A DNA stretch of 64,000 nucleotides, from contig CAZMTN010000002.1 in the NCBI GenBank assembly GCA_964569655.1, positions 901-64,900 on the forward strand. The letters run 5' to 3'. Under the pieces are notes generated by a model. It was not told the origin of the DNA, ran no database searches, and saw nothing but the letters and a program-made list of their open reading frames with translations. Below, piece after piece: positions 8,215 to 44,284 of the stretch. Source of the stretch: an uncultured Candidatus Saccharibacteria bacterium (GTDB lineage: Bacteria; Patescibacteriota; Minisyncoccia; Phycocordibacterales; Phycocordibacteraceae). Position numbers and translations under genes: made by a program. Each line of letters begins with the position of its first letter. Within the stretch, counting starts at the first letter, position 1.

Positions 8215-8618
8215 GGGAGTGACCGGCTTCGACGGTCTGTTCCTTGAAATCGCGCAACGCAGTGCACGCCCGGATGCCACTTGAATCCATCGGGCACCAA
8301 ACTTGCAGACAATACCTTTGCAAGCGTGAAGTCTCCTTACTTCGGTAAGAGCTTCGCGTTCGCTTACGCGTAAAAGCTTCGCGCTTTCGCCTGAGCGACG
8401 TCCTCCTTTCCCGGCTCTCATAGCGGAAAGGACGGGCGGAATATCCTATGAGATCGCGTACGGCACTTCTCCCGCCGTCCGTTAAACCCTGAGATCAGGC
8501 AGCGACGCTTTCGCCGGCGTTCTTATGTCGCTGCTGAACCCCCAACACCGGCTATGCGTTGTAGAAGCGTTTCATGTAAACGGATTCGGACGCGGGTTCG
8601 ATTCCCGCCACTTCCACC
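8215..8618 (+). ncRNA. ssrA: tmRNA (ssrA), ~400 nt
   Basis: 5' end GGGAGTGACCGGCTTCGACGG and 3' tRNA-like end GGACGCGGGTTCGATTCCCGCCACTTCCACC; acceptor stem GGGAGTG/CACTTCC with G3:U70; internal frame ending ...GKSFAFAYA-TAA (~8371) is tag-like; adjacent to smpB. Confidence 0.8.
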
Positions 8619-8625
8619 GATAAGG

Positions 8626-20030: not shown

Positions 20031-20609
20031 CTATATCTTCCCTTCCCGTATGGAAAGGAGTGCGGCGGTGAGCGCCTCCTTCGCTTCCTCGAGCTTGCCC
20101 GGGAGATTCTCCACGACCACGTCGGCCTGCGGCTTGAAGGGCAGCTCGTTATCATGGCGCTCCTTGCGCTTGGCGAGCTCGTCCTCGGAAATCTCCGCGC
20201 GAGCGCGTACGCGGCGCTCGTGTTCCTCCCATGAGCCGGCGTCCACGTAGACGATCTTCACGTCCTCGCGCGGCAGCTTCGCGAGTACCTGCCGGATGCC
20301 CTGCACTTCCATCTCCTTTATGATCAGGCGCCCGGCCGCCAGGCCATCCTCGACGTCTTTCTTCGGCGTCCCGTAGGAGCCCTTCTCCAGATGCGCATAT
20401 TCGATAAGCTCCCCGCCCTCCGCCATGGCGTCGAATGCCGGCTGGTCGATGAATGCATAGTCGGCATTCTCAAGCGCGGAGCGACGCGGGCGCGTGGTGT
20501 ACGTCCGGAGGTAGGAGATGTCCGGGAATGTCGCGCGGACATGCTCCATGAGCACGCTCTTGCCGCTCCCGGTGGGACCCATCAGGAGTATGAGCTTGCC
20601 GCGAGTCAT
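20031..20609 (-). CDS. gmk: guanylate kinase
   Basis: P-loop GPTGSGKS and guanylate-kinase signature TTRPRRSALENADYAFI; lies between secY and adk, an unusual position. Confidence 0.7.
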   Translation of the reverse strand: MTRGKLILLMGPTGSGKSVLMEHVRATFPDISYLRTYTTRPRRSALENADYAFIDQPAFDAMAEGGELIEYAHLEKGSYGTPKKDVEDGLAAGRLIIKEMEVQGIRQVLAKLPREDVKIVYVDAGSWEEHERRVRARAEISEDELAKRKERHDNELPFKPQADVVVENLPGKLEEAKEALTAALLSIREGKI

Positions 20610-23859: not shown

Positions 23860-24252
23860 TTACCAGACCTCGAAGAGGTTCTCGCCGCCGGCGCGGACCT
23901 TGCGAGCCTCGCGATCGGAGAGGATGCCCTTCGGGGTAGAGATGATGCGGGCGCCGACGCCGTTCTTCACGCCGTGCGCTTCGCGGGCGTTCACGTAGAG
24001 GCGGCGGCCGGGCTTCGACACGCGCTTCACACCCTTGATGCGATGAGCCCCGTTCGCGTCGTACGCGAGGGTGACCTCGAGCATCTTCTTGTCTCCGGAC
24101 TTGGTGGCGACGTCAGCGACGTAGCCGAGCTCGCGGAGCTTCTTCGCGATAGCCTCGAGGTATGCGGAGTGCGGGAGGGATACTACTTCCTTCCCCACCG
24201 CTCCGGCGTTCTGAAGGCGGATGATGAAATCTCCGACGCGGTCGTTTACCAT
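23860..24252 (-). CDS. rpsH: 30S ribosomal protein S8
   Basis: [16 protein letters not shown]... conserved S8. Confidence 0.9.
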
Positions 24253-24515
24253 GATGCTTTCTTAACGCCCGGGATCTTGCCCTCGCGGGCGAGGTTGCGG
24301 AACTCGATGCGGGACAGGCCGAACGGGCGCATGTATCCGCGCGGGCGGCCGGAGATCGCGCAGCGATTCTTGAGGCGGACCGGGCTCGAGTTGCGAGGGA
24401 GCTTCTGGAGGCCTTCCCAGTCTCCGGCAGCCTTAAGAGCCGCACGCTTTACAGCGTACTTCTCGACGAGCTTTGCCTTCTTGGCATTGCGGGCGATCTG
24501 TGAGGTTTTGGCCAT
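24246..24515 (-). CDS. rpsN: 30S ribosomal protein S14 (long, non-zinc form)
   Basis: start at internal [16 protein letters not shown]...; conserved C-terminus [39 protein letters not shown]. Confidence 0.85.
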
Positions 24516-24638
24516 ACAAAAAAAGCTCCGGGGAGCGTCAACCCAATGTATCATCTGGGTTCTAGGGCGTCAAACGGGGCTAAGATGAAGGGCGCAGCCG
24601 GGGGTGTACCCTGCTGCGCCCTGTGCTGTTTTGGCCCC

Positions 24639-25058
24639 CTATAAGAGGGCGAACGAGATGGCGGTGTCCTCCTCGTAGGGAGGCTCGGCCTCCTGGACCC
24701 GGATAGTCCGCTCGTTCTGCTCGCTCCACTGCACCGTGATGTCGAGCACGGAAAGCTTGTGCCATTTCAGCAGTTTCCTCACCTGGTCGAGGAGGTGCTG
24801 CTGCCCCTCGACGCTCAGATATCCGAAACGGCGGGAGATCTCAGCGGCCTTGAACTGGATATAGTTCACGTTCTCGTTCCTCGTAGAGAACGTGACCGAG
24901 CGATCCTGCCTGTTCGCCGGCCGCTTGCCGAGGAATGCTTCCACGGCCTCCTTGCGCAGCTCCGGCTTCGCAGCGAACAGGTCATTCAAGTGGCATTCGC
25001 CGATCCGTTCCCGGATCCTGAACGCAGGCGAGTTTAGTCCGTCTACTAACGTGTCCAT
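24639..25058 (-). CDS. uncharacterized protein, paralog A of a tandem pair inserted between rplE and rpsN (139 aa)
   Basis: ATG with AAGGAG SD; shares motifs with paralog B (GECHLNDLF vs TECHLHDII; LDITVQWSEQNERTIRVQEAE vs LDVEVEWGPESKRRIRAQEAG). Confidence 0.55.
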   Translation of the reverse strand: MDTLVDGLNSPAFRIRERIGECHLNDLFAAKPELRKEAVEAFLGKRPANRQDRSVTFSTRNENVNYIQFKAAEISRRFGYLSVEGQQHLLDQVRKLLKWHKLSVLDITVQWSEQNERTIRVQEAEPPYEEDTAISFALL

Positions 25059-25199
25059 GCTTACTCCTTACCCTGGGATGCTGCGACGCGGACGCACATA
25101 CGTCATGATCCTGGGTGTTTAAGCGTCCGGAGGCACCATAACAGAGCGTATTAGCAAAGTAAAAGGCGCGGCAGGATTTCTCCGCCGCGCCCATTGTTC

Positions 25200-25586
25200 T
25201 CAGATAAGAAAGAACCGCAGATCCCCTTCCCCGTGCTGCAGATTGGTCCTGTTGCCCGCTTCTTGCGCTCGGATGCGGCGCTTCGACTCCGGACCCCATT
25301 CCACCTCAACATCCAGCGTCTGGGATCGCTGGTCCTTCATGGCCGTCCGGACTCTGTACAAGAAGGCCTGCTGCGCGTCGATCGGCATCTTGAGATAGCG
25401 AAGCAGCAGCTTGGCATCCTTGAAATAGATATGCACTACTCCTCGGGTCTCGCTCCACCAAGGGTCAGCGACGCAGAAGAGGTCCTCTGAACGTTCGCCT
25501 TTGAAGGCCGCCTCGATATTCCGGCGGTTTTCCCCATCTCCGATGATGTCGTGGAGATGGCATTCAGTCACTGAAAGCGTCTTCAT
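25200..25586 (-). CDS. uncharacterized protein, paralog B of tandem pair (128 aa from internal ATG)
   Basis: internal ATG (MKTLSVTECHLHDII...) with GGAGAA SD; upstream track extension is low-complexity; same-strand as the r-protein operon. Confidence 0.55.
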   Translation of the reverse strand: MKTLSVTECHLHDIIGDGENRRNIEAAFKGERSEDLFCVADPWWSETRGVVHIYFKDAKLLLRYLKMPIDAQQAFLYRVRTAMKDQRSQTLDVEVEWGPESKRRIRAQEAGNRTNLQHGEGDLRFFLI

Positions 25587-25712
25587 TGCAGTTCTCCGGC
25601 TACGGGCTCTACACATGGACGCACATTGTGCATACCCGAGCGATAACGCGTCCGCCCGCACCATAGCAAAACGCCCCGGCGTTAGCCAGGGCGCTCTGTC
25701 TTCTTGTGAAAT

Positions 25713-26246
25713 CTACTTGCGGAACGGCACGCCGAGGTGCTTGAAGAACGCCATAGCATCCTTCTTGCTCTTCGCGCTCGTGACGATGGTCACGGCGAGG
25801 CCGAAGACGTCCTTCACCTCCTCATCTGAGGTCTCCGGGAAGATGGTGTTCTCCTTGATGCCGATGGTGAGGTTGCCCATCTCGTCTACCGCCGACGCAT
25901 TGATGCCGCGGAAGTCGCGGGTACGCGGGAGGGCGACGTGGATGAGGCGGTCGAGGAAGTCATACATGCGGGCGCCGCGAAGCGTGGTCTGGAAGCCGAC
26001 GGTGTCTCCCTCGCGGACCTTGAAGGACGCGATCGAGATGCGGGCGGCGCGGCGAGCGGCCTTCTGGCCGGTGATGCGCGCGAGCTTGCCCTCGATGAGC
26101 TCGAGGACCTTCTTGTCGCGCTTCTTGCCCACGCCGGTCGAGACGATGACCTTCTCGATGCGGGGAGCCGCCATGCGGTTCTTGTAGCCGGACTCCTCCT
26201 TGAGGATGTCGTAGGCGGCCTGAGTACGTTCTTTGGTAAGCATCAT
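25713..26246 (-). CDS. rplE: 50S ribosomal protein L5
   Basis: conserved L5 (YKNRMAAPRIEKVIVSTGVG... GNLTIGIKENTIFPE). Confidence 0.9.
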   Translation of the reverse strand: MMLTKERTQAAYDILKEESGYKNRMAAPRIEKVIVSTGVGKKRDKKVLELIEGKLARITGQKAARRAARISIASFKVREGDTVGFQTTLRGARMYDFLDRLIHVALPRTRDFRGINASAVDEMGNLTIGIKENTIFPETSDEEVKDVFGLAVTIVTSAKSKKDAMAFFKHLGVPFRK

Positions 26247-28932: not shown

Positions 28933-29268
28933 TTATTTCTTAGCGGCCGGAGACGCAGCCTTAGCGGCCGCGATCTCGGACTCGGTCTTCTTCTGCTCGA
29001 TCTCCTTCTGCATCTTTCCGCCGTGGCGGATGAACTTCTTGGTCGGGGAGAATTCGCCGAGGTAGTGGCCGACCATCTCCTCGGAGACGAGGACGTCTAC
29101 GTGGGTCTTGCCGTTATGCACGGCAAAGGTGAAACCGACCATCTCAGGCGCGATCTGGGAGCGGCGGGACCAGGTCTTGATTGCCGAAGACGCAGACGGC
29201 TTCTTGCCGCTGATCTTCTTCAAAAGTTTCTGGTCCACGTATGGGCCTTTCTTGACTGATCGTGACAT
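28933..29268 (-). CDS. rpsS: 30S ribosomal protein S19 (with Lys/Ala-rich C-terminal tail)
   Basis: [19 protein letters not shown]... [13 protein letters not shown] conserved S19; its usual upstream neighbour rplB is displaced 11 kb away. Confidence 0.9.
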
Positions 29269-29303
29269 GGTAATTAAAAGCCCGCCGAAGGCGAGATATA
29301 GCC

Positions 29304-29332
29304 AAGATACAGGATGGCGGGAGGGACGTCAA
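29304..29332 (-). promoter_or_regulatory. candidate sigma70-like promoter TTGACG-17-TATCTT for the rpsS-led half of the split S10 operon
   Basis: hexamers with 17-nt spacer ~35 nt upstream of rpsS ATG on minus strand, just inside the island boundary. Confidence 0.35.
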
Positions 29333-29423
29333 ATCGGGCCTCCCTCCTGGCCCGGAGGAGGTGGACGGGATACGGGTTCATGGTATAATCACGGGCAGAA
29401 GTTGCAATTTGGAGAGTACATAC

Positions 29424-29801
29424 ATGGGCTCGAAGAGCACAGATATCGCGCAGCTGATCATCGACTGCCTGAGGATGAAGCCGTCCTTCACCCCCTGGGA
29501 AACCTTGAAGGAGGACATCGAGGACAAGATCCTCGAACGCCACGGGCTGACCGTACGGATCACCGTGGTCCGCTTCGACAACCAGGTCCGCATCGTCACC
29601 ATCGTGCACGATCGGAAGTCCGGGACCATCCGCCTCGAGAAGGAGAAGGACGGGTGGAAACGCAAGCTCCGCATGGGGCTCTATGCGAATCCTTTCGAAC
29701 CGGATCCCCTCCTGCTTGGCGGGAGTCTGGGAACCGCCGAGGACCCGGGAGCGGACAAGCCCATCCCTTGGCCGAGCATCAAGAAACGATCCGCAGCGTA
29801 A
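29424..29801 (+). CDS. hypothetical protein (125 aa)
   Basis: internal ATG with GGAGAG SD; followed by terminator GGGTCGGAAC-GAAA-GTTCCGACCC + TTTTTC (29810-29845). Confidence 0.45.
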   Translation: MGSKSTDIAQLIIDCLRMKPSFTPWETLKEDIEDKILERHGLTVRITVVRFDNQVRIVTIVHDRKSGTIRLEKEKDGWKRKLRMGLYANPFEPDPLLLGGSLGTAEDPGADKPIPWPSIKKRSAA

Positions 29802-29809
29802 TCTGCGGA

Positions 29810-29845
29810 TAAGAGGGTCGGAACGAAAGTTCCGACCCTTTTTCT
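29810..29845 (+). terminator. intrinsic terminator GGGTCGGAAC-GAAA-GTTCCGACCC + T-run
   Basis: 10-bp perfect stem with GAAA tetraloop. Confidence 0.6.
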
Positions 29846-29865
29846 TTGCGGTACACTAGGAGCAT

Positions 29866-30666
29866 ATGACCTTCAACCGCGACGCCTTCATCGGACTCTT
29901 CGTTCTCGGGCTGGTGCTCCTCGGGCTCTTCTGGTACGTAGCGACCCACCCCGCCCCCACCCCAGGGACGGGATTCCTCCCGCAGGGGCAGAACAACGTA
30001 GTGGACCGGGGTCCCCAGCAGATTACCGAGACCGCCGACTGGTACGCCATAGACGCCAAGTACCCGGGCACTACGCCCCTCTCCGTGACCGCAGGAGCCG
30101 AAGCTGAGGCTAATGCCGTCCTCCTCATGAAGACCTTCGAGGAGGGGCAGATAGAGCGCTTCAAGGGGGATCTAGCTGGCTATGACGCGGAATATCGGCA
30201 GTTCCTCGCTGCAGAGGGCCGCAAAGCGAGCCTTTCCATCGATTACGTGGGCTTCGCTTCCCCGAAGACCCTCTCCTACGTCTACGGCATGGTCGAGGAC
30301 ACTCTTGGCGCGCACCCGAATAGCTATTACCGCACCTTCACCTTTGATCTCGCTACCGGCGAAGTCCTCCACCTCGGGGACCTCTTCGAGGACCCCAACT
30401 ACCTCCAGACGCTGAGTACCCTCTCCCGCGAGCGCCTTCCGGCAGACCTGGCTAGCCGTGCGCAGATAACCGTGGACCAGGTGGATATGGATATGCTCAA
30501 CGCCGGCACCGCGCCCTACGAGGACAATTTCATCAACTTCTACATAGACGGCGAGGAGTTCGTGCTCCTCTTCCCGCCGTATCAGATCGCTGCGTACGTG
30601 TACGGGTCTTCCGAGCTCCGGTTCCCTAAGGCGGAGCTCCCGGGATTCAGCGCCGAGTACCGATAG
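29866..30666 (+). CDS. membrane-anchored DUF3298/DUF4163-like protein (RsiV/PdaC-N-terminal-like fold)
   Basis: N-terminal TM (FIGLFVLGLVLLGLFWYV) and C-terminal region NFINFYIDGEEFVLLFPPYQIAAY typical of DUF3298. Confidence 0.5.
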   Translation: MTFNRDAFIGLFVLGLVLLGLFWYVATHPAPTPGTGFLPQGQNNVVDRGPQQITETADWYAIDAKYPGTTPLSVTAGAEAEANAVLLMKTFEEGQIERFKGDLAGYDAEYRQFLAAEGRKASLSIDYVGFASPKTLSYVYGMVEDTLGAHPNSYYRTFTFDLATGEVLHLGDLFEDPNYLQTLSTLSRERLPADLASRAQITVDQVDMDMLNAGTAPYEDNFINFYIDGEEFVLLFPPYQIAAYVYGSSELRFPKAELPGFSAEYR

Positions 30667-30741
30667 AGAAAGCCGCGCGCGGGGCTTTCTTATTTAAAGG
30701 CCGGGTGTAGTATCACGGATGAAACAACGAAGGAGGATTCC

Positions 30742-30996
30742 TTGTTACGATCTTTACCGGCCTATGACACCTTAGGCATGCACGCCTCGTACGAAACGCT
30801 CTGCGAGACACTCGCCTCCCGGGAACCAGGCGAGGAGCAGATGAACCGGGACTTCGTCCGGAACTCGATACTCCGGGCGCGCGAAGAGCGTCAGCAACGG
30901 TTCGAGGGCGCGATCATCACGGCGCGACACCACGCCCCCTCTTCCGAAACTACCGGCTTCTGGAAGCGAGTTTGGAACCACATCATCCATACATGA
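30742..30996 (+). CDS. hypothetical small protein
   Basis: ORF only; no SD or family evidence. Confidence 0.25.
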   Translation: MLRSLPAYDTLGMHASYETLCETLASREPGEEQMNRDFVRNSILRAREERQQRFEGAIITARHHAPSSETTGFWKRVWNHIIHT

Positions 30997-31034
30997 GAAA
31001 AAGGCCCGCGAGTAAGCACTCGCGGGCCTTTCAT

Positions 31035-31577
31035 CTAGCTGATATCGAACGTCAGGCGCTTCGGGAACCGTAGCTCGTGCTTGTCGCCGAGCATCTGGAT
31101 CTCCTTCTTGTGCAGCCCGCGTGCGGACACGGACATGCATCTACGATCGCCGCCCAGAGGCTTAGGGGAATACCCGGGGGAGATCCACCGCTTCCCCGCG
31201 GAGAAACCGCGTCCGTCGAGCAGTATGCGGATCCGGTGCCCCGAGATGGAGACGTCGAGGATCTTCAGTCCTTGCTCGGCCCAGAGGCTTTCCGTGCTCC
31301 TCTGGTAGAAGATCTTCGACCATTCGTTCTTCTCGATCTCCTGGCCGTAGTGATACACGCTGCAGGTGAACTGGACGACGAAATAGGTCTCGGCGAACGT
31401 CCCTTCCCACTCCCAGCGACCCCCCTTCCAGGAAGCTGTCTGGTCCAGCCTGGTTTTCGGGATCAGGGCTGCGCGGACCGCGACCATGACGCCGTTCTCA
31501 AGCGCCTCCTTATGTGAGGCTGAAACCAAAGGCCCGCCTTCGAAGCGACTCTTCGCGAAGATACTGCTATGCTGCAT
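31035..31577 (-). CDS. hypothetical protein (180 aa)
   Basis: ORF upstream and co-directional with the oxygenase/YgjP/hsd block. Confidence 0.4.
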   Translation of the reverse strand: MQHSSIFAKSRFEGGPLVSASHKEALENGVMVAVRAALIPKTRLDQTASWKGGRWEWEGTFAETYFVVQFTCSVYHYGQEIEKNEWSKIFYQRSTESLWAEQGLKILDVSISGHRIRILLDGRGFSAGKRWISPGYSPKPLGGDRRCMSVSARGLHKKEIQMLGDKHELRFPKRLTFDIS

Positions 31578-31650
31578 AGGCTTCCCCTTTCAAGAAAAGC
31601 GTCTTTCCGCTCACTGTATACGCCTCATCCGGGAGTACCGCAACCGGCGC

Positions 31651-32484
31651 CTAATCCACGAACATCTTGTCGAACTCCTCGAAAGGCATGTCGTAGAAGG
31701 AACCGGGCGGCCACTTCTGCTGCGCGCCGAACTTGGTCTTATCGAAATAGCGGGCATTCCTGAAGTTGAAGAAGCAGACCGCGGAGAAGCGTCCGTTCTT
31801 CGCGGTATCCTCGTTCGCGACCACGCGGTGCGAGAGCGCCCGGAGCTGGCAACGTGAGCGATTTTGGAGACCGTTCCCCGCGATGATGACGGTCTGGTCA
31901 TGCGAGAGCGGCATGCTCACCCATTCGCGCGTCTTGAAGTCGAGGCGCTCTACGCCCGAGTCGCTCTCGTAGAGGTGGAGGGTGAATCCTCCCTTGTCGT
32001 TATGCGGGGTGGCTATCTCCTCCCCTGGCGCGCGGGTGCCGAAGTAATGGAGGAAGCGGATGAGCCAGTCCGGCTGCTTGGCGAGGACATCGTCCGCGAA
32101 GTCGGGGATGTCATAAGTCTTCTCGATGGATTCGGCGAAGCTCCTGATCGTCGGGACCATGAGCTCGTTCAACGCGAGCGCCTTCTCGACGAAAGCTGGT
32201 GCTATCACTGGGTCAACCTTCCGCGCATGCTCCATAAGCCGCTCTCGCGCCTCTGTACGCAGATGCATGTTCTCCTTGAGGTCGAAGGTATTCCCTTCCT
32301 TGAGCTCGTACCCGTTTCCGCTGGTCTTCGTGTCTGGGTCATACGGGAAGTTGAGTTTCTGCTCTCGAGGGAGCTCGCAGAATGCTTTCCAAGCAGCTAC
32401 CGCTTCCTCGACGCCCTTACGGAGATCTTCGGGATAGGAGACGTAGAGGCGGCCGAGGGTTTGGAGGTCGTCAAAGTTTTGCAT
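31651..32484 (-). CDS. 2OG-Fe(II) oxygenase superfamily protein (isopenicillin-N-synthase-like non-haem dioxygenase)
   Basis: HxD...H iron-binding pattern (PHNDKGGFTLHL ... LSHRVV) and N-terminal DIOX_N-like region; start at internal ATG MQNFDDLQ (alternative upstream start at 32562). Confidence 0.55.
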   Translation of the reverse strand: MQNFDDLQTLGRLYVSYPEDLRKGVEEAVAAWKAFCELPREQKLNFPYDPDTKTSGNGYELKEGNTFDLKENMHLRTEARERLMEHARKVDPVIAPAFVEKALALNELMVPTIRSFAESIEKTYDIPDFADDVLAKQPDWLIRFLHYFGTRAPGEEIATPHNDKGGFTLHLYESDSGVERLDFKTREWVSMPLSHDQTVIIAGNGLQNRSRCQLRALSHRVVANEDTAKNGRFSAVCFFNFRNARYFDKTKFGAQQKWPPGSFYDMPFEEFDKMFVD

Positions 32485-32638
32485 GACAATAGTATATATG
32501 GTTCGAACTTGATCATCAGGCGGAACCGATCTCCCCTCGTTTGAACCACTGTTTGCAATCATCGACCCTAAAATTGAGAAACTCCGGGCGATGCATAAGA
32601 CCAGTCCGAGGAGATTTGAGCTAGATGTATTTGGACCG

Positions 32639-33310
32639 TTAGATATTTAACACTCCTTCGTTCGCACGAAGCCATGTTTTTGCTTTTTCAAAGGATGGAT
32701 ACATGATCTTTACTCTCGACCAAAAAGAGTCGGAATGATTCTTGTGTTCTAAGTGAGCAAGCTCGTGGACGACCACATAGTCAATGACCCAAAGAGGAGC
32801 CATGATGAGCCGCCAACTAAAGTTAAGGTTGCTGGTAGTGCTGCATGAACCCCAACGCCTGTTAGCGGTCGTTATCTTTATTGAGGAGTAGGAAAGGCCA
32901 GAACGACGAGCGTACAACTCCACACGCTCAGTAATCTGCTTCTTGGCCTCTGTCTTGTACCAAGAAATGAGAACAGCCCGAGCGTTCTTCTTTTCCCTTG
33001 AGCTGAGAATGAAAGCACTCTTGAAGTCGAGCTTCTTCGTTGTCTTCTTATCGAAACGAAGTTTGTAGGTCTTACCGAGGTAGAGGAAGCTCTCTCCTTC
33101 CACGTATTCATGTGCAACGGCTCGTGGTTGTGAGCTTATCTTCGCTGCGGCCTGCCGTATCCAGTTCAGCTTCGACTCTATGAGCCGTTCGATGTAGGAG
33201 ACCGGCGTATTCATCGGTGCGCGAACAATAAGAGACGCATCAGCAGTTATGGCCAATGCGATGGTACGCCGCTTGGAACGTATGAGCTTGTACTTCTTAG
33301 AAGTTGCCAT
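32639..33310 (-). CDS. YgjP/DUF45 (M48-like) zinc metallohydrolase, commonly linked to type I R-M loci
   Basis: C-terminal HELAHLEHKNHS (HExxH) zinc motif; 14-nt overlap with hsdR stop. Confidence 0.7.
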   Translation of the reverse strand: MATSKKYKLIRSKRRTIALAITADASLIVRAPMNTPVSYIERLIESKLNWIRQAAAKISSQPRAVAHEYVEGESFLYLGKTYKLRFDKKTTKKLDFKSAFILSSREKKNARAVLISWYKTEAKKQITERVELYARRSGLSYSSIKITTANRRWGSCSTTSNLNFSWRLIMAPLWVIDYVVVHELAHLEHKNHSDSFWSRVKIMYPSFEKAKTWLRANEGVLNI

Positions 33311-36300
33311 AGATGTGATACGCCAGCTCAGTTATCTTCTGACTGAGAATAAGGCGCTTGCTGAACATTGTCTCATTGCTCTTGAACTCAGTTAAGAGGT
33401 GTGAAGCGATAAAGCCCTTGAGACGGCGCTGTGCAGGAACATTGTTCCAGAAATCGACCATCTCCGTCTCTGTCTTGATGCGCTCCAAGATGTCCTTTGT
33501 AATGCGCACCAGGTTCTCTTTTTGGTCAGCACTTAGGTCTGCCAGGTCAGCAACGCCGTAGACTTCTTTCTTAAGAAGACCGAGGAATGGAAGTTCTTTC
33601 CGACGGTCCAGGCCATAGCTCTCTTCTCCTTCACGGCCCTGTCGCATTTCAATGCGCAGCATCTCAAGCTCACGGGCAAGCTGCTCCCAGTTCTGGTGAT
33701 ACTGCTGGAGCACTTTCTCAAGCTTCTCACTGAACCGAGCATAGAGTTCCGGGTCTTCGTCCGCATGCTTCTCAATGTAGTCGCCTATGGCGTGCTTCAG
33801 CTCGTCAGAGCGAGCCTTCGGTGGCTTTACCTTGGCTTTGAGCTCGAACTTCTCATCGAAGATAGGGGTCGGAGGAATCTTCGGGTCAACGCCCTTGGAT
33901 ACCAGGTACTCGTCGAGGATGTCGCGCACCTTCTTACTTACATCACGAAGGTTAAGCTTCTCGTCGCGGTAGCGATTCCGGGCGACTTGGGCGATAAATC
34001 CGAACTGTTTAAGGTCGCGGCTGTACTTGAGTGCCTCCGGTTTCGGCAGCGCTTTATCCATAGCGTTCGAGAACTTCCTAAAGAGCGTAAGGAAGTCATT
34101 GCGCGTCTCGTCGTCAGCAAGCAGGTCAACGCATACATCTATATCGTCGAGGTCATGCACTTCGTACTTACGGAAGAACTCGGTAATTTCCGCCCGAGCG
34201 TGTTCCAGCTCGTCCATGTCCCGACCTTCATCCTTAAGGACTTCGAGCGCCTCATCAATATCCTCATCGTTGAAATTAGAGAGGGCTTTGCGCAGATGAT
34301 TGACCACACCCACGTAATCGACGATAAAGCCTGCGTTCTTATTCTTCTCGATACGATTCACGCGAGCGATAGTTTGCAAAAGGTTATGCTCCTTTATCAC
34401 GTTATCGAGGTACATCACCTGCTCTATAGGCGCATCAAAGCCGGTAAGGAGCATGCCTTGCACCACAAGAATACCGACATCACCTTCAAGCCCGTCCTCG
34501 TTCTTCTTTCCGTATGGAAGCTTGAATCGAGCGATAGCATCCTCATGCTTCCTGCCGTCTGTATACGGTCGCATTGAAGGGTCGTCATTGTTGCTTCCTG
34601 AAATAACAACTTCCACTTTCATACGAGAGAACTGTTCTGGGTCTACTGAAATCTCAGACTTCGACTTAAGCGAAGTGATAAGGCCTTGAATCCACGCATC
34701 GTTCTGCAAGAGCGTATCGAAAGCTTGCTTGTACTTGATGGCTGCATGACGAGAGGTGGCGACTACCTGAGCTTTGAATCCGTTCGGATAAATCTGGCTC
34801 GCGTAATGCGTGAGCATATCCTCTGCTTTCTCTCGTATGGTTTCATCGGCCTCAAGATACGCCTTCCAAGTGTAGCGGCCCTGGATAAGCGCCTTAGTAT
34901 CCTCGTCCGCTCCTTCAAATACGTCCTCGAAACGCTTGTTCATCGCATCCGTATCGCTGACTTCCGCTTTGTGCGTACGTCCTTCGTAGATGATTTCAAC
35001 CGTAACCCCGTCCTCGACCGCTTCGCGTATCGTGTACTTGTCGATGTAGCTACCGAACGTCTCTTCCACCTTATCTATAGGCGTGCCGGTGAAGGCGATC
35101 TTTACTGAGTTCGGAAGGGACCGGTGCAGGTTTGCTCCAAGCAGCGAAAACTGACTGCGGTGCGCTTCGTCAATAAGAACGAGTACCTGCTCACTCTCGT
35201 TAAGGACCGGGAACTCCTGCATGAGGTCATGCTCTTGGAACTTATGAATCATGCCCATGATGAGGTCAGGGGTCGTTGTAGAAAGGCAGTCCTTAAGCTG
35301 GCTGATGCTTCTCGCTACTTTAAGCGTATAACCAACTCCTTTGGCTGTTTCGCCGAGCTGCTTCTCAAGGTCTGTACGGTCCGTGATGAATACGGTTTTG
35401 AAACCGGTTAGCACTGGGTCGTGGTACATCTTGCGCACCACCATCATCATCGTGAGCGACTTACCTGAACCCTGGGTGTGCCACACGATACCGCCCTTCT
35501 TCGCAGGCGATTCACCCGAGCGCAAACGTTCGATGATTTTATGAACCGTACGGAACTGCTGATAGCGTGGAGCAACCTTAATGACGCGACCCTTGCTGCC
35601 ATCTTGGAACACCATGAAGGACTGAATGATGTCGAGCAGGTTCTTTCGGTCGAGAACGCCCCGTACAAAAATATGCTGGCTCGTGATGGATTCGCTTCCT
35701 TCTGTATCGATTTCAGCAATGGTGGCCGGGTACGGGTCCTTCCACTCGATGAAGTGCTCGTACTCTCCGGTTATGGAAGCATAGCGGCATATCTGTTTGC
35801 TTGTTGCGACTAGAAGCTGGTTGTACCAGAACAGCTTGGCGTTTCCTTCGGGCTCTTCGCCGCGACGGTTCTGATACCGCATGAGTTGCTCGACCGCTTC
35901 GCCCATAGGGTCGGGGAGGTATGCAGACTTACATTCGATAACAACGAGCGGAAGACCGTTCACGAAGAGCACGATGTCAGGGATGATGTGTTTCTCGGTG
36001 CCAGGGATATTTACCTTGAGCTGAGAAATCGCCAGAAACTCGTTGTCCTCAGACTTACTGAAATCAATGAACCTCACGGCTTCAGTTTTGCCAGTGCTCC
36101 TATTCTCGGCAGAAGAACACTGAAGGAGCTTCTCGAAGATATAGCGGTTGTTCTCAACAAGGCCACCAACGATGCCTAGCGTAGTGATTTCTCGTACGAG
36201 AGACGGAAGCTGGTCCTGCTCAAGCCATGGGTTAAGGCGCATGAGGGCAGCCTCAAGCTTCTGTGTAAGGACCACATCCGAAAAGGCCTCACGGAAGGTT

Positions 36301-36464
36301 ATGGTAGGGTCGCCCTTTCCTGCTTCGCCAGCACGCAGAATAGACCAGCCAAGGCCTTCGAGCTGCCGAAGCAGGGGCTCCTCGACGTATTGTATTTCGT
36401 TCAGGATGAGGCGTTTCTTGTCCATGTTAATTTTTACGTCCGCCCATAGGATGGACAGTACCAA
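33297..36464 (-). CDS. hsdR: Type I restriction enzyme R subunit (HsdR)
   Basis: 1055 aa; N-terminal nuclease region, SF2 helicase motifs (TQGSGKS Walker A, DEAH box VLIDEAHRSQ, motif VI QTIARVNR); downstream of hsdM-hsdS. Confidence 0.85.
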   Translation of the reverse strand: MVLSILWADVKINMDKKRLILNEIQYVEEPLLRQLEGLGWSILRAGEAGKGDPTITFREAFSDVVLTQKLEAALMRLNPWLEQDQLPSLVREITTLGIVGGLVENNRYIFEKLLQCSSAENRSTGKTEAVRFIDFSKSEDNEFLAISQLKVNIPGTEKHIIPDIVLFVNGLPLVVIECKSAYLPDPMGEAVEQLMRYQNRRGEEPEGNAKLFWYNQLLVATSKQICRYASITGEYEHFIEWKDPYPATIAEIDTEGSESITSQHIFVRGVLDRKNLLDIIQSFMVFQDGSKGRVIKVAPRYQQFRTVHKIIERLRSGESPAKKGGIVWHTQGSGKSLTMMMVVRKMYHDPVLTGFKTVFITDRTDLEKQLGETAKGVGYTLKVARSISQLKDCLSTTTPDLIMGMIHKFQEHDLMQEFPVLNESEQVLVLIDEAHRSQFSLLGANLHRSLPNSVKIAFTGTPIDKVEETFGSYIDKYTIREAVEDGVTVEIIYEGRTHKAEVSDTDAMNKRFEDVFEGADEDTKALIQGRYTWKAYLEADETIREKAEDMLTHYASQIYPNGFKAQVVATSRHAAIKYKQAFDTLLQNDAWIQGLITSLKSKSEISVDPEQFSRMKVEVVISGSNNDDPSMRPYTDGRKHEDAIARFKLPYGKKNEDGLEGDVGILVVQGMLLTGFDAPIEQVMYLDNVIKEHNLLQTIARVNRIEKNKNAGFIVDYVGVVNHLRKALSNFNDEDIDEALEVLKDEGRDMDELEHARAEITEFFRKYEVHDLDDIDVCVDLLADDETRNDFLTLFRKFSNAMDKALPKPEALKYSRDLKQFGFIAQVARNRYRDEKLNLRDVSKKVRDILDEYLVSKGVDPKIPPTPIFDEKFELKAKVKPPKARSDELKHAIGDYIEKHADEDPELYARFSEKLEKVLQQYHQNWEQLARELEMLRIEMRQGREGEESYGLDRRKELPFLGLLKKEVYGVADLADLSADQKENLVRITKDILERIKTETEMVDFWNNVPAQRRLKGFIASHLLTEFKSNETMFSKRLILSQKITELAYHIYGNF

Positions 36465-37725
36465 CGAGAAGTGCCTTTATCAAACCAAGTCTTATTCGCT
36501 GGAATTTGTTTAAAACTAACAGGCTTGAACTTATATCTTCTGCGGCAGTTCTAAATGTAGTTAGTATTCTCTTTTGTTCTGCCAAGTCTGGGACAGCAAG
36601 AGGCAAAGCATTCAATGCTTGTTGATTTATACTGCTTTGATTTGATGAGTTAATTTGTGCAACGATTTTTTTCCTTACCGCATATGATTTCAAGCAACGA
36701 AAAAGTACCTCAGGAAACATTAACGAGGTATCTACAGAGAGTTTCAGCATATTTGATTCGTATACTGCCTCTTCTGGTAAGTCGCTTATTAAAACAGGCC
36801 TACCTACACCTTCCACGGTTGCAAAGACTCTAGAAACCAGAATATCGCCCTCTTTGAGGGAAAAGGTCTCGAGCTCGTTCTTTGAAAGATTTGCTCTACG
36901 CGCTAGCGAATAGTCTAGCGTTCCATGCCTGGTAAAGCTTGTTTGTCCTACCAACAATGTTCCTGTTCCTATCTCACTAGCGGGCTTGTAGATACCGTTT
37001 CGAGGGTTGGCGATAAGCAATTCGCGAAGAGGTCTAACCTTCCATTCCGAAGGAACTCTCCCTAATGGTGAAGCCTTAAACTTATGTGTTTTCTCGTTGC
37101 GAATTACCCCGTTTTCATCCACACCATATTCAAACAACTCTCGTAGCACGCCGTCCAAAATTCTCTCCTTCTTTTCTACTCTGTTCTCAAGACTGGTAAT
37201 TGTTCTTTTAACGTCCTCGAGAATGGCTACGATTTGACTCTGTTGTTCAACAGACGGTACGCGGACAAGAAGTTTACGGATATGTCTTCCGTAAAGATGA
37301 ACAATGGTTGAGCCTTGCGCAAACCGTGCCAGATTTCTTTTCTCTTCGTGAGTTAGTAGATACGCGATGAAACGTGAGTCAATTTCGCTTCCTGATTTTT
37401 TACGAAGAATGTTTATATCTCCACCAAGAAAGACACGACTCTGCTCGATTGCTGCTGCAGTTGCAACATCAAGAGCTGATGTAGTTGTTGATGCCGGAAT
37501 AAGAACATCTCCCACAACAGAAGGAATTCCTTCGTGCGCGTCAGTGTAGCTCAGAGCTTCCTTTATGACTTCGGAATACGTTGTGTAGAGCTCTCCATAG
37601 AGAAGGCAGGGGTTCTTACCATCTCGGTCTAACTTTTCTTTCGATAAACCTTGACCTTTTTTGAAGTCAAAAACTTCCTCTAGCGCTATTTCTTTCCATC
37701 CATCTACCATGGTCGTCTTGCTCAT
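36427..37725 (-). CDS. hsdS: Type I restriction-modification specificity subunit (HsdS), two target-recognition domains
   Basis: 432 aa with duplicated TRD architecture and conserved central/distal coiled-coil spacers; overlaps hsdM (4 nt) and hsdR (38 nt). Confidence 0.75.
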
Positions 37726-40142
37726 AGGTATCCTAACTGGCTAAGAGTTTTGTCGAGTTCTCGAGCACTTTTCTCTGCGGTTTTCTTAAGCACGTCGAGT
37801 GAAAGGTGATATTTGTCCCATAATCCTTCGAGCGCCGTTCTTACTTCCTGCTCTTCAGAGGACAGGTAGCGCATGAGTTGGGAGAGAATTCCGTCATGGA
37901 ATTTCTGCAGGATAAGCGTTCGAGCTTCGGCTTCAGTAAAGGAACCCTTCTTCGCCTCTACCTTACGCTCAAGGTCTTCGCCTCTATCTTTCAGAATGCG
38001 CTTTGCATCCTTGAGCTTAGACTCCTTATCCTTAATATCCGCAAGCGCTGTTTCTAGGTTCTTCAATTCCTTTTCAGAAACCTTTGCATCTAGGTAAGCG
38101 AGGTTCGCTATTTGGGTATTGAGGTAGTCCTTTACCGATTTCAACGTCTTGTCTTCTTCGTCGGTATCAACCTCATCAACTAACGTCAGAAGCGCTGCTT
38201 GAATGTTATCTATACTGATTTCTATACTCTCTATCTCGATTAGCTCCTTCTCAAAGAAAGCTTTGCGAATGTATTCGTCTGGAATAAGGCTGGGACTCCA
38301 GCCTACGGTTACGATGGCCTTAAGGTCGTAGCGAACGTCCTCCCACCAGTTCACGAAAACACCAGCCTTCTGGAAGTCATCGAGCGTCTTGATGCCTGAT
38401 AGCGCCTCCTTGAAAGATACAATTTCTTCGCGTCGGAAATCAGCGACATGGTTATTCTTAGGGAACTTCACAACCTTCTTTTGTGCTTCGCTCCACCACT
38501 CATCAAGGGCTTTCTTTGCTTGTCGCTTAACAGTAAGTACCCCTTCAAGCGTTGCCACTAGGTCGCGTATGTCTTTCCTCTCGGTAATATCCGTCTTGAA
38601 CTGAGCGTATTGCTCATCGACATCATTAAAAAAGTCCGAGGCCTTCGCCTTATATTTCTTGAATTGAGGTTCGTGCAGTACTATTTCTCGCTTAGGGATA
38701 CCGCCTTCAAGATGCGCTCTGACATCCTGTATTTCAGGCTCAGGTGAGTTATCGACATAACGGCGTATGTTGAGATTGTATTCATTCTCTTGTATTTCAG
38801 GCAGGTCAACGAGGCGTGAGTAGTTAGGGACCTGAAGCTTGTGTGCGAATACGTGGTCGATTTTTTCTATATCTTCAGGACGGAGGAAGTTCTGGTTCCT
38901 GCTCTCGCCATACTCCGCGTCAGCATTGATGAAAAAGATTTTTCCCTTAGTGTCCTTTGATTTCTGCTTATTGATAACGATGATGCAAGCAGGGATACCG
39001 GTCCCGTAAAAAAGATGCTGCGGTAGAGAGATTATGGCCTCGATGAGGTCGTCGTTCACGATACCTTCGCGAATAGCTTTCTCTACACCACCACGGAAGA
39101 GCACGCCGTGCGGCATGACAGTCGCCATCATTCCATCATCCTTCAAGGAGGCAATCATATGCTGTACGAACATAAGGTCTGCCTTCTTGCCGGTTTCAGG
39201 CGCAAAGCCGTAGCGGAATCGCTGCGGATACTCGAGCGCTGCGCGTGAGTAATTTTGTGAGAATGGTGGGTTCGCTATCACGCGGTCGAACTTCTTTATG
39301 TAGCCACGCTCAACGAATTTCGGAGTCTGGAGGGTGTCTTCGTACTCAACATGAGCAACGTTGATGTTGTGCAGGAACATATTCATCTTGCAGATGGCCC
39401 AGACCGTACCGTTATTGTCCTGACCGTAGAGCGCTATGTTCTTTGAGTTCTGTCCGGTCTCGTCGAGATACTGCTTCGATTGAATGAGCATGCCGCCTGA
39501 ACCGCATGTTGGGTCGTACACGAACATGCCTGACTGCGGCTTCAAGAGACGCACCAAAAGGCGCACAACATGAGCTGGAGTATAGAACTCGCCGCCCTTC
39601 TTTCCTGCGCTGTCCGCGAATTCCTTGATGAGGTATTCGTATGCGGCTCCCAGGAGGTCCGGGAACTCGAAGTCGTCGTTCGTAAGTGGGAGTGTATCGA
39701 AATGATGGATGAGATCGATGAGTTGCGGGTCTTTCACCTTGCGCTTAGTACCGATTTGAGCGAGAAAGTCGATGTGATTCAACACCCCGCTCAGCTCACT
39801 GTTGTGCTTCTCAAGTTCACCAAGAGCCTTGTTCAGTTTGTTTCCAACATCGTCATGCAAGACGCGAATCTTCTCCCATCGCGCACCAGGAGGAATAAAA
39901 AATGTGTCACCGTACTGCGTAGAGTCATCGAGAAGTTCATCGATTTGCGATTCCGATAGCCCTTGCTTGGTCCACTTTCTTCGTATCTCTTCTCGCTCGA
40001 CGTCGAACTGGTCAGAGACACGCTTAAGGAAGAGCATCCCGAAGATATACTCTTTGAATTCCGACGCATCCATCTTGCCGCGCAAAATATCTGCGGCAGC
40101 GAGAAGATGACGTTCTAGATGTTGGAGAGTAATTTTTTGCAT
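37722..40142 (-). CDS. hsdM: Type I R-M N6-adenine DNA methyltransferase subunit (HsdM) with ~300-aa C-terminal coiled-coil extension
   Basis: N-terminal HsdM-N domain, SAM-binding ([11 protein letters not shown]) and catalytic NPPF motif (IANPPFS); 806 aa, well above typical ~500-550 aa. Confidence 0.85.
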
Positions 40143-40228
40143 TTATTTAAAAGTGCATTTCTTGGTTCAAACTTGGAAATCGTCTGGTGAAAATAGGGTT
40201 CGAACCTCTCCAGCCTACTTCATTTAAA

Positions 40229-40258
40229 CGAAGAAAGCACCCATCTGGGTGCTTTCTC
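40229..40258 (-). terminator. hairpin terminator immediately downstream of rplB (AGCACCCA-TCT-GGGTGCT + T-rich on minus strand)
   Basis: 8-bp stem right after rplB stop, where rpsS would normally follow. Confidence 0.45.
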
Positions 40259-40259
40259 T

Positions 40260-42862: not shown

Positions 42863-42946
42863 GAAAAAAATTAGCGCCACGAGGGGCGCGAGGGCCGAAG
42901 CCCCTTGCACCTTGGTCCGGCCGTCAGCCGTACTTGTGACCTAGGG

Positions 42947-43860: not shown

Positions 43861-43973
43861 CAGTTTTCTCCCTTCGATGGAATGTAATTGGAACTAACCG
43901 TGTACTATTTTAGCACATGAATCTGGTATGTCAAATATGCAAAGAGCCGCCCTCGTAGAGCGGCTCTTCCCTT

Positions 43974-44192: not shown

Positions 44193-44284
44193 GGGAACTC
44201 CTTTCTGCCGAGACGATAGCACGGGACGCATGGTATGCACGTGAAAAGCCGCGAGCAAGGGATGCCCGCGGCTTTCTTCGATGC

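What the first reader, a model, noticed from the sequence alone, without database searches (positions are those of the whole stretch)
24555..25712. Tandem pair of paralogous unknown proteins inserted between rplE and rpsN
Two same-strand genes (24639-25058, 139 aa; 25200-25586, 128 aa) each have a strong SD and share motifs: GECHLNDLF / TECHLHDII near the N-terminus and LDITVQWSEQNERTIRVQEAE / LDVEVEWGPESKRRIRAQEAG near the C-terminus. I cannot place them in any family I know. The L5-S14 junction is normally tight, so these genes are probably co-transcribed with r-proteins, which suggests a ribosome- or translation-linked role. The possibilities (a hibernation or silencing factor, or a small toxin-immunity or nucleic-acid-binding pair) are pure speculation. 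The conserved Cys-His dyad (ECH) could be a metal or catalytic site.
Basis: seen in the sequence. Interest (0 to 1): 0.7.

Follow-up and report, generated by a model that had tools for sequence, protein, structure and literature searches.

The report
Orphan gene pair in ribosomal hotspot
Two real, related small genes of an undescribed protein family lie between the ribosomal genes rplE and rpsN of a candidate-phyla-radiation bacterium, but they look like self-contained cassettes sitting in a recurrent insertion site, not parts of the ribosomal operon.

Summary
Genes A (25200-25586) and B (24639-25058), both on the minus strand, are paralogs (31% identity, E 1e-15) under purifying selection.

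The interpretation mostly fails.
- Each gene has a terminator-like hairpin upstream, an extended -10 box, a ~70-nt structured leader, a strong SD and its own terminator-like hairpin.
- rpsN has its own promoter-like motif, found in 72 of 81 related loci. The insert lies upstream of it, so co-transcription with r-proteins is unlikely.
- The junction is an insertion hotspot. 23 of 77 related genomes carry about 500 to 2750 nt of extra sequence there, including a MazE-Doc module, a transposase, a DNA methylase and a Cas2-like protein.
- This window's r-protein cluster is also broken at four other junctions, one by a type I R-M system.

A and B belong to a rare family of about 125 aa (42 profile hits). 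It has no Pfam, NCBIfam, PHROG or PADLOC match. A confident model (pLDDT 84) has no PDB or viral fold match. The Cys-His dyad is not conserved.

Other members sit at rplE|rpsN in four more lineages. Others lie next to a serine recombinase plus Pycsar, near HicAB, and overlapping a DUF4258 toxin gene. A family-specific leader RNA with covariation was found.

Best reading: accessory cassettes, possibly orphan antitoxin-like. A ribosome-linked role is not excluded.

The parts
25713..26246 (-). rplE (uL5), the upstream flank of the insertion
   Evidence: ORF. It is 69-84% identical to L5 of 80 Paceibacteria/Kaiserbacteria-type genomes.
25667..25698 (-). Terminator-like hairpin after rplE: 14-bp stem, UAAC loop, then UUUUG
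   Evidence: strand folding gives -29.4 kcal/mol, z -4.35. Relatives with the compact 57-nt spacer lack it.
25660..25668 (-). Extended -10-like box TGCTATGGT of gene A, 6 nt upstream of the leader's first G
   Evidence: Read from the sequence. It aligns with the equivalent box of B, L001 and L085. The transcription start is inferred, not measured.
25587..25653 (-). Structured 5' leader of A. The 5' GGACGC pairs with GCGTCC 25 nt downstream. The loop is complementary to the stretch that ends at the SD.
   Evidence: Covariation count. Model R1 scores 41.2 bits, E 6e-9. Loop/SD-proximal duplex z -2.0.
25200..25586 (-). Gene A, 128 aa, member of the new family
   Evidence: dN/dS 0.09 against L001.
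25164..25192 (-). Terminator-like hairpin after A, followed by UUUUACUUUG
   Evidence: Found by the terminator scan. Strand folding gives -23.6 kcal/mol, z -4.4. A similar hairpin follows the family gene in L085.
25135..25143 (-). Extended -10-like box TGTTATGGT of gene B, with TTTACT 17 nt upstream
   Evidence: Read from the sequence. Inferred, not measured.
25059..25129 (-). Structured 5' leader of B. CGGACGC pairs with GCGTCCG, loop 27 nt. The loop is complementary to the SD-proximal stretch.
   Evidence: Covariation count. Model R1 scores 39.1 bits, E 2e-8. Duplex z -2.2.
24639..25058 (-). Gene B, 139 aa, paralog of A and the faster-evolving copy
   Evidence: dN/dS 0.33. AlphaFold2 model with pLDDT 83.8.
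24589..24622 (-). Stable hairpin after B with a weak U-tract
   Evidence: Inverted repeat I8. Strand folding gives -34.8 kcal/mol, z -4.9.
24545..24573 (-). rpsN promoter-like motif: TTGACG, 17 nt, TG-n-TACATT
   Evidence: Found by the promoter scan. The same motif sits at the same distance from rpsN in 72 of 81 loci.
24525..24536 (-). Conserved rpsN leader hairpin GCTCCCCGGAGC, which contains the SD and is followed by a T-run and the ATG
   Evidence: Present in 63 of 81 loci.
24246..24515 (-). rpsN (uS14, long 89-aa form), the downstream flank
   Evidence: Pfam Ribosomal_S14 on the identical gene in L003.

Best explanation
A and B are tandem duplicates of a small (about 125 aa) alpha/beta protein from a rare, undescribed family. 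That family has so far turned up only in uncultivated bacteria of the Patescibacteria (CPR) type.

Each gene is its own monocistronic cassette. In order, each has the terminator-like hairpin of the preceding gene, an extended -10 promoter, and a ~70-nt structured leader that starts at the transcript's 5' end. The 3' strand of that leader covers the SD. Then come the ORF and its own terminator-like hairpin.

The pair sits in the one permissive spot of the rplE|rpsN junction, between the end of rplE and a clade-wide rpsN promoter. The downstream ribosomal genes therefore keep their own transcription. In this clade the spot is a recurrent landing site for accessory and mobile genes.

The position therefore reflects where insertions are tolerated, and probably where they are exchanged through recombination in the conserved flanks. 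It does not indicate a ribosomal function.

The most likely role of the proteins is accessory and conflict-related. My specific guess, at about 0.3, is an orphan antitoxin or immunity-type protein that neutralises a partner by binding it, with translation gated by the leader.

Shown: paralogy, purifying selection, family membership, cassette anatomy at sequence level, the hotspot, leader covariation.
Inferred: transcription starts and stops, SD gating, the accessory role, the antitoxin-like role.
For: Paralogy and coding status.

Family:
- A profile search of 1.84 billion representatives gave 42 hits at E<=1e-3. Apart from one 613-aa repeat protein that was set aside, they are 89-172 aa.
- No member matches Pfam meaningfully.
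- There is no match in plasmid or phage records.

Separate transcription units:
- Hairpins after rplE, A and B have z -4.4 to -4.9.
- The upstream regions of A, B and L085 share homologous -10 boxes.
- The rpsN promoter-like motif is present in 72 of 81 loci, and every insertion lies upstream of it.

Hotspot:
- The median spacer is 57 nt, but 23 of 77 relatives have about 500-2750 nt there.
- The cargo includes MazE+Fic/Doc, DUF5678+Asp protease, a HicB-like protein, an rve transposase, an Eco57I-like methylase and a Cas2-like protein.
- None of these gaps holds a family member.
- The sister lineage L001 has an additional opposite-strand 476-aa gene between B and rpsN.
- The same window has four more interruptions of the r-protein cluster, including a low-GC type I R-M system between rplB and rpsS.

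Contexts of other members:
- Large serine recombinase plus Pycsar (L093).
- HicAB about 1 kb away (L091).
- An ATGA overlap with a DUF4258 gene in L097. DUF4258 is listed as a RelE/ParE-superfamily type II toxin family, and DUF4258-MqsA fusions are reported (PMC11980606).

Leader:
- Hairpin 1 is 95.8% paired, 4 of its 8 pairs show compensatory changes, and 0 of 500 shuffles reach the score.
- RNAalifold recovers it on an unfitted alignment.
- Model R1 hits only the family leaders. The next hits in the window lie inside coding sequences, and nothing scores below E 0.8 in 634 kb of relatives.
- The second helix has z -2.0 to -3.6 in 8 lineages, Fisher p 1.6e-8. This includes L098, which was not used to define it.
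Against: - Five lineages carry a family member exactly at rplE|rpsN: the window, L001, the P0004 contig, L085 and L095. Host L5 identity among them falls to 60%. A sixth member lies at the end of the rplJL operon. That is more r-protein adjacency than chance placement would give.
- No partner toxin gene lies in the window or next to most members.
- The DUF4258 link rests on one 704-nt contig.
- No promoter or terminator has been measured.
- Whole-leader MFE z-scores are weak, -0.2 to -2.4.
- The insert's GC (57-59%) is close to the window's average (about 60%). Composition therefore does not prove foreign origin.
Confidence: 0.6

Rival explanations
1. The family consists of RNA-binding, ribosome- or translation-linked accessory proteins. 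They autoregulate by binding their own structured leader, as many r-proteins do. Their position in r-protein operons reflects their function.
For: - Members sit at rplE|rpsN in five lineages and next to rplL in a sixth.
- A leader that travels with this one gene family in different contexts, and is seen in front of no other gene, is the pattern expected for autoregulation.
- Conserved Arg, Gln and Trp residues could contact RNA.
Against: - The family is absent from all 77 related genomes that retain both flanking genes.
- Each gene has its own promoter-like and terminator-like signals.
- The family is on average neutral, median pI 7.1 and net charge 0.
- Other members lie in defence or mobile islands or upstream of a gap-rpiB-tkt operon.
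- The same junction takes unrelated cargo.
Confidence: 0.2
2. The leader is a small-molecule riboswitch or an RNA thermometer, and the proteins act in a pathway tied to that signal.
For: Two covarying helices in pseudoknot or switch topology lie next to the SD, and no Rfam family matches.
Against: - Only one gene family is controlled.
- Few nucleotides outside the stems are conserved.
- The sample is small, 8 lineages.
Confidence: 0.08
3. A and B together form a toxin-antitoxin or toxin-immunity pair.
For: Two adjacent small genes lie in a hotspot that carries TA modules in relatives.
Against: - They are paralogs of one fold.
- They are 141 nt apart, with a terminator-like hairpin and a second promoter-like box between them.
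- Relatives carry a single copy.
Confidence: 0.03
4. The proteins are enzymes or metal-binding proteins that use the Cys-His (ECH) dyad.
For: ECH is present in A, B and their orthologs.
Against: Across the family the equivalent positions are Gly/Thr/Ser and Leu/Ile/Met. Neither Cys nor His is conserved. No enzyme fold matches.
Confidence: 0.03
5. The ORFs are spurious and sit in non-coding spacer.
For: None beyond the lack of annotation.
Against: dN/dS is 0.09 and 0.33. The paralogs match at E 1e-15. There are 42 profile hits. The structure model is confident.
Confidence: 0.01

Closest known systems
Orphan antitoxin or immunity genes of type II TA and polymorphic-toxin systems (for example, antitoxins downstream of DUF4258/RelE-ParE-superfamily toxins)
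   Same: - Small, fast-evolving and patchily distributed.
- Occur as tandem paralogs.
- Found in hotspots and defence islands.
- One member (P0043) overlaps the stop codon of a DUF4258 toxin gene, in the position where MqsA-type antitoxins occur.
   Different: - No sequence or fold similarity to MqsA, HigA, RHH, AbrB, Phd or SUKH proteins.
- No toxin gene in this window.
- Regulation looks post-transcriptional, through an RNA leader, rather than through a promoter operator.
Gene insertions between operons of the conserved r-protein supercluster (Brandis 2021, PMC8046335), and core-gene-flanked integration hotspots (general knowledge)
   Same: Non-ribosomal genes are inserted at a transcription-unit boundary inside the str-S10-spc-alpha cluster, and the flanking genes stay intact.
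   Different: The boundary here lies inside what is a single spc operon in E. coli and Bacillus, between rplE and rpsN. It is created by a clade-wide internal promoter. It is used repeatedly by different cargo: 23 of 77 genomes.
Autoregulatory mRNA leaders of r-protein operons (S15 and S4 pseudoknots, the S8 site; background in PMC3616713)
   Same: A structured leader next to the SD has a hairpin-plus-downstream-helix topology and is tied to one protein family.
   Different: No Rfam match. No evidence that the protein binds it. The proteins are not basic.
Ribosome hibernation and silencing factors (HPF/RaiA, RMF, RsfS)
   Same: Small size, and location among translation genes.
   Different: No Pfam or NCBIfam match and no fold match. 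Not conserved in relatives.

Membership tests
spc-operon member (co-transcribed r-protein-operon gene) | No terminator or promoter between it and the flanking r-protein genes | tested here: not met
   Stable hairpins follow rplE, A and B, with U-runs after the first two only. A, B and rpsN each have a promoter-like box. This is sequence-level evidence only; no transcript data exist.
spc-operon member (co-transcribed r-protein-operon gene) | Conserved at this position across related genomes | tested here: not met
   0 of 77 related genomes that retain both flanking genes has a family member at the junction. Five metagenomic lineages do.
Ribosome hibernation/silencing factors (HPF/RaiA PF02482, RsfS PF02410, RMF) | Sequence match to the family profile | tested here: not met
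   Pfam and NCBIfam at E<=10 give nothing relevant for A or B. Nothing relevant appears for the 43 family members either.
Ribosome hibernation/silencing factors (HPF/RaiA PF02482, RsfS PF02410, RMF) | Fold match to solved structures | tested here: not met
Ribosome hibernation/silencing factors (HPF/RaiA PF02482, RsfS PF02410, RMF) | Binding to ribosomes | not testable with these tools
   Needs biochemistry.
Type II toxin-antitoxin pair formed by A and B | Two different proteins, toxin and antitoxin, in one bicistronic operon | tested here: not met
   A and B are paralogs. They are separated by 141 nt that contain a terminator-like hairpin and a second -10 box.
Antitoxin/immunity-type protein (orphan) | Adjacent, translationally coupled toxin gene in at least some members | tested here: inconclusive
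   Met in one distant member: L097, where a DUF4258 gene at E 1e-19 overlaps the family gene by ATGA.
Antitoxin/immunity-type protein (orphan) | Neutralises a toxin by direct binding | not testable with these tools
   Needs co-expression or binding assays.
Cys-His enzyme or metal site | Catalytic or ligand residues conserved across homologs | tested here: not met
   Cys22 and His23 are restricted to the A/B lineages. The family invariants are R77 and Q86, with F69 and W111 nearly invariant.
New small-protein family (this report; consensus ...ELLxRF...Q..FL..xR...V.WS....R.I.I) | Significant profile match over the whole domain | tested here: met
   A and B seeded the profile. It returned 42 hits at E<=1e-3 in 1.84e9 representatives. 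The alignment-based model has pLDDT 83.8.
New small-protein family (this report; consensus ...ELLxRF...Q..FL..xR...V.WS....R.I.I) | RIPAADTG loop motif of most members | tested here: not met
   A, B and the other junction members lack it.
New small-protein family (this report; consensus ...ELLxRF...Q..FL..xR...V.WS....R.I.I) | Family-specific 5' leader (GGAYRC hairpin plus an SD-proximal helix) | tested here: met
   Both A and B carry it, at 41 and 39 bits.
Known RNA families (Rfam 15) for the leader | Covariance-model match | tested here: not met
   Nothing at E<=1 over the leaders, apart from an sX6 hit at 17.8 bits against a gathering score of 40. Nothing at gathering score in the window other than the tmRNA and one tRNA.

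The most novel reading that the evidence does not exclude
The family is a new class of small RNA-binding proteins. They recognise their own pseudoknotted leader and ride the transcription-unit boundaries of r-protein operons because they act on ribosomes or rRNA. Alternatively, the leader is a new ligand-sensing RNA class. Either reading would pair an undescribed fold with an undescribed cis-regulatory RNA in CPR bacteria.
Probability: 0.15. Interest if true: 0.8.

Novelty: new variant of a known kind. Interest (0 to 1): 0.5.

Why it matters
The finding corrects an attractive inference. In these CPR genomes, a gene wedged between r-protein genes need not serve the ribosome.

In this clade the spc operon appears to be split by a conserved internal promoter in front of rpsN. 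The resulting gap collects TA modules, R-M genes, an IS element and orphan genes. This bears on how genes get annotated by neighbourhood in uncultivated bacteria. It also bears on how tiny genomes tolerate and exchange accessory genes.

The work also yields two concrete objects for follow-up:
- A rare protein family with a confident predicted fold and no solved relative.
- A family-specific structured leader RNA, supported by covariation, that probably gates translation.

Tried and rejected
- **Family libraries.** Pfam, NCBIfam, PHROGs and PADLOC on A and B gave nothing. Pfam on all 43 family members gave only scattered sub-threshold hits: DnaJ_C, SUKH-4 and KTSC, each in 1-2 members.
- **PDB.** A sequence-profile search gave nothing below E 0.1.
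- **Word-indexed homolog searches.** These found only the sister lineage, and the third search, with the profile, added nothing.
- **Mobile-element collections.** Viral contigs, plasmids and phages gave no relatives.
- **Metagenome scan.** It needed a narrower alignment after two refusals, and then gave only 3 loci.
- **HUH/IS200-type transposase idea.** Prompted by HLH in A and the flanking hairpins. Rejected because the motif is not conserved and no fold matches.
- **Foreign composition.** Weak evidence. The insert has 57-59% GC, against 62-68% for the neighbouring r-protein genes but about 60% for the window as a whole.
- **Flanking repeats.** No convincing direct or inverted repeats bound the insert.
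- **First leader fold.** My first fold_alignment of the leaders cut off the 5' arm and was uninformative.
- **Whole-leader MFE.** The z-scores are weak. The second helix therefore rests on the consistent topology and on the duplex shuffles.
- **DNA operator reading of the leader's inverted repeat.** Less likely, because G-U pairs occur and the two helices are interleaved.
Full report
**1. Observation**

The window's r-protein genes lie on the minus strand. rplE is 25713-26246 and rpsN is 24246-24515. Between them lie gene A (25200-25586, 128 aa) and gene B (24639-25058, 139 aa). Both have good SD sequences: GGAG 7 nt before the ATG of A, and AAGGAG 5 nt before the ATG of B.

A and B align over 106 residues at 31% identity, E 1e-15. 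The tandem-paralog claim is therefore correct.

A sister lineage was recovered from metagenomes (L001/L002). Its L5 and S14 are 98% identical to the window's. It has the same two genes at the same place, A at 91% and B at 73% amino-acid identity. Nei-Gojobori estimates give dN/dS of 0.09 for A and 0.33 for B. The partial rplE, rpsN and the partial rpsH give 0.06-0.28. Both are real protein-coding genes, and B evolves faster.

**2. Organism and normal state of the junction**

The window's L5 is 69-84% identical to L5 of 80 genomes named Paceibacteria, Kaiserbacteria, Minisyncoccia or Patescibacteria. No rpmD lies between rpsE and rplO, a known trait of the candidate phyla radiation (from memory).

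In 77 of these genomes that have both genes on the contig, the median L5-S14 spacer is 57 nt. It is at most 100 nt in 48 genomes, 101-300 nt in 6, 301-1000 nt in 16, and above 1000 nt in 7.

The spacer is not empty. 72 of 81 loci have TTGAC, about 17 nt, then (TG)ATAnnnT at a fixed distance from rpsN. 63 of 81 then have the leader hairpin GCTCYTCGGRGC, a T-run and the ATG. The window has exactly this at 24573-24516. rpsN therefore appears to start a transcription unit throughout this clade. All insertions, including A/B, lie between the rplE stop and this promoter-like motif.

**3. The junction is a hotspot**

The 23 relatives with about 500-2750 nt at this junction hold unrelated genes:
- MazE-type antitoxin plus Fic/Doc (L033).
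- DUF5678 plus a retropepsin-like protease (L059).
- A UPF0150/HicB-like protein (L065).
- An rve-type transposase (L053).
- An Eco57I-like N6 methylase (L034).
- PaaX_M/Cas2-like proteins (L017 scanned; similar ORFs in L062 and L067 judged by eye).

None of these gaps contains a relative of A or B (family HMM).

The sister lineage L001 has one further gene between B and rpsN, a 476-aa membrane protein on the opposite strand.

The window itself shows the same habit elsewhere in the r-protein cluster:
- Two ORFs lie between tuf and rpsJ.
- Three orphan ORFs lie between rpsJ and rplC.
- About 11 kb lies between rplB and rpsS. It includes a complete type I R-M system (hsdM, hsdS, hsdR, a YgjP-like peptidase) at 45-51% GC.
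- gmk lies between secY and adk.

Position among r-protein genes is therefore poor evidence of function in this genome.

**4. Anatomy of the insert**

rplE is followed by a 14-bp hairpin plus UUUUG (-29.4 kcal/mol, z -4.35). A is followed by an 11-12-bp hairpin plus UUUUACUUUG (z -4.4). B is followed by a 10+3-bp hairpin with a weak U-tract (z -4.9).

The regions upstream of A and B are homologous to each other and to the region upstream of the family gene in L085. Each has the preceding hairpin, then TGnTATGGT (TTGTATTTT in L085), 6 nt, and then a leader.

I infer two monocistronic units. No transcript data were available, so starts and stops are inferred.

**5. A family-specific leader RNA**

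A 5' arm GGAYRC(C) pairs with GGYRTCC 22-29 nt downstream. This occurs upstream of family genes in the window (A and B), L001 (A and B), L085, L095, L094, L086-89/L092 and L090.

On alignment A7, 95.8% of cells are paired, and 4 of the 8 pairs show compensatory changes (C-G to U-A, G-C to A-U). None of 500 shuffles reaches the covariation score, and slid controls collapse. RNAalifold finds the same helix on an unfitted MAFFT alignment. G-U pairs argue for RNA rather than a DNA operator.

A covariance model of this hairpin scores 41 and 39 bits on the two window leaders. The next window hits, 18.8 and 18.0 bits, lie inside the rpsJ and a methyltransferase coding sequence. Nothing scores better than E 0.8 in 634 kb from 83 loci, nearly all of them related genomes that lack the family.

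The loop of this hairpin is also complementary to the stretch between the hairpin and the start codon, which usually includes the SD. Against dinucleotide shuffles, z is -2.0 to -3.6 in each of 8 lineages, Fisher p 1.6e-8. L098 was not used to define the pattern. It has the same architecture with different arm sequences (GGCACC/GGTGCC; loop CCAGATA with TATCTGG next to the SD).

Nested MFE folds give a long hairpin. Its apical loop contains the 3' arm, its 3' strand covers the SD, and the 5' arm is left free. The two helices therefore either form a pseudoknot or alternate as a switch.

Two caveats apply. Whole-leader MFE z-scores are weak, -0.2 to -2.4. I also found the hairpins by looking for inverted repeats. 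No Rfam family matches.

**6. The protein family**

A profile of A, B and their orthologs was searched against 1.84 billion representatives. It gave 42 hits at E<=1e-3. Apart from one 613-aa repeat protein that I left out, they are 89-172 aa.

In the 43-sequence alignment, R77 and Q86 (B numbering) are invariant, and F69 and W111 are nearly so. The Cys-His dyad is confined to the A/B lineages. Most members have a loop motif RIPAADTG that A, B and the other junction members lack.

No member has a meaningful Pfam hit. The PDB profile search gave nothing.

AlphaFold2 with this alignment gives pLDDT 83.8 and pTM 0.77. The order of elements is strand, two helices, a long loop, strand, two helices, three strands. 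A 4-sequence alignment had given only pLDDT 65.

**7. Where other members live**

At rplE|rpsN:
- P0004, which is 45% identical to A (contig without DNA, directly upstream of S14).
- P0005 in L085 (host L5 77% identical).
- P0035 in L095 (host L5 60% identical). Its true start is probably an upstream GTG.

At the end of rplJL, convergent: P0032 in L094.

Elsewhere:
- P0008 near murJ and DUF genes.
- P0006 next to an ABC transporter.
- P0036 near trmB and hup.
- P0033 upstream of gap-rpiB-rpe-tkt.
- L093 between a large serine recombinase and a Pycsar system.
- L091 about 1 kb from HicAB.
- P0043 in L097. Its ATG overlaps the stop codon of a DUF4258 gene (Pfam E 1e-19).

DUF4258 is listed among BECR-fold RelE/ParE-superfamily toxins of type II TA modules, and DUF4258-MqsA fusions are reported (PMC11980606). 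No DUF4258 relative is in the window.

**8. Interpretation**

The best-supported account is that A and B are autonomous accessory cassettes in a tolerated and repeatedly used gap of the r-protein cluster. They are not operon members.

For function I commit to an accessory, conflict-related role. Orphan antitoxin or immunity-type is the specific guess, at about 0.3. The grounds are:
- A patchy distribution.
- Fast divergence: 25-45% identity among junction members whose hosts' L5 and S14 proteins are about 60-80% identical.
- Tandem duplication.
- The company these genes keep.
- The single DUF4258 pairing.

The main rival, at about 0.2, is an RNA-binding, translation-linked protein that autoregulates through its leader. 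Recurrence next to r-protein genes in six lineages and the one-family leader keep this rival alive. Recombination in the highly conserved flanks could equally explain the recurrence. That explanation is my inference and is untested.

**9. Comparison and novelty**

Insertions between operons of the r-protein supercluster are known in Gammaproteobacteria and Bacilli (PMC8046335). Three things are different here:
- An apparent internal boundary between rplE and rpsN.
- Its repeated use by varied cargo.
- The protein family and its leader RNA, neither of which matched any library available here.

I found no description of either among the papers returned by the literature searches. That is weak evidence of absence.

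Noticed in passing
window 29269-40259, with the core at 32639-40142: About 11 kb lies between rplB (40260-41108) and rpsS (28933-29268). It holds a complete type I restriction-modification system: hsdM 37722-40142, hsdS 36427-37725, hsdR 33297-36464 and a YgjP-like peptidase 32639-33310, at 45-51% GC against about 60% elsewhere. It also holds a 2OG-Fe(II) oxygenase (31651-32562) and a DUF3298 protein (29866-30666, plus strand). A defence system has split the S10 operon.
   Followed up: partly
window 43027-45510 and 46020-47163: Three orphan ORFs (167, 149 and 277 aa, no Pfam match) lie between rpsJ (45614-45982) and rplC (42254-42910). Two more (209 aa minus strand, 158 aa plus strand) lie between tuf (47266-48468) and rpsJ.
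   Followed up: partly
window 24516-24573, and the equivalent position in L001-L085: A clade-wide promoter-like motif (TTGAC, 17 nt, TGATAnnnT) and a conserved rpsN leader hairpin GCTCYTCGGRGC that contains the SD. They occur in 72 and 63 of 81 loci respectively. The hairpin may be an uncharacterised regulatory leader for rpsN and the distal spc genes. About nine loci (for example L020, L028, L040, L044, L053, L069, L073) have a different conserved leader instead (CCCAGCGAGCGAGG...GAGCGAGCGCAGG).
   Followed up: partly
window 20031-20609: A guanylate kinase gene (Pfam E 6e-21) lies between secY and adk, inside the usual secY-adk-map run.
   Followed up: no
window 5431-5504 and 8215-8619: tRNA-Ile with anticodon TAT, which is uncommon in bacteria, and a tmRNA gene (Rfam, 103.6 bits).
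   Followed up: no
L001 1554-2984 (minus strand): In the sister lineage, a 476-aa protein with apparent transmembrane segments and no Pfam hit lies on the opposite strand between B and rpsN. It is followed by the same rpsN promoter motif.
   Followed up: no
L097 2-684: A DUF4258 (RelE/ParE-superfamily toxin) gene has its stop codon overlapping (ATGA) the start of family member P0043. This is a possible new toxin-antitoxin pairing. It rests on a single 704-nt contig.
   Followed up: partly
L093 2223-9244: A large serine recombinase, then a family member with two overlapping small ORFs (90 and 86 aa), then a Pycsar-like system: a cyclase, a PycTM effector and a second cyclase. This looks like a mobile defence island.
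   Followed up: partly
L098 4900-5003 (also L099 and L100): Family member P0033, seen on 22 contigs, sits upstream of a gap-rpiB-rpe-tkt operon. Its leader has the same two-helix architecture but different arm sequences (GGCACC/GGTGCC), so covariance model R1 missed it.
   Followed up: partly
L086 about 7800-7900: A run of N in the ENA scaffold is flanked on both sides by the same leader sequence, probably an assembly gap or duplication artefact just upstream of the family gene.
   Followed up: no
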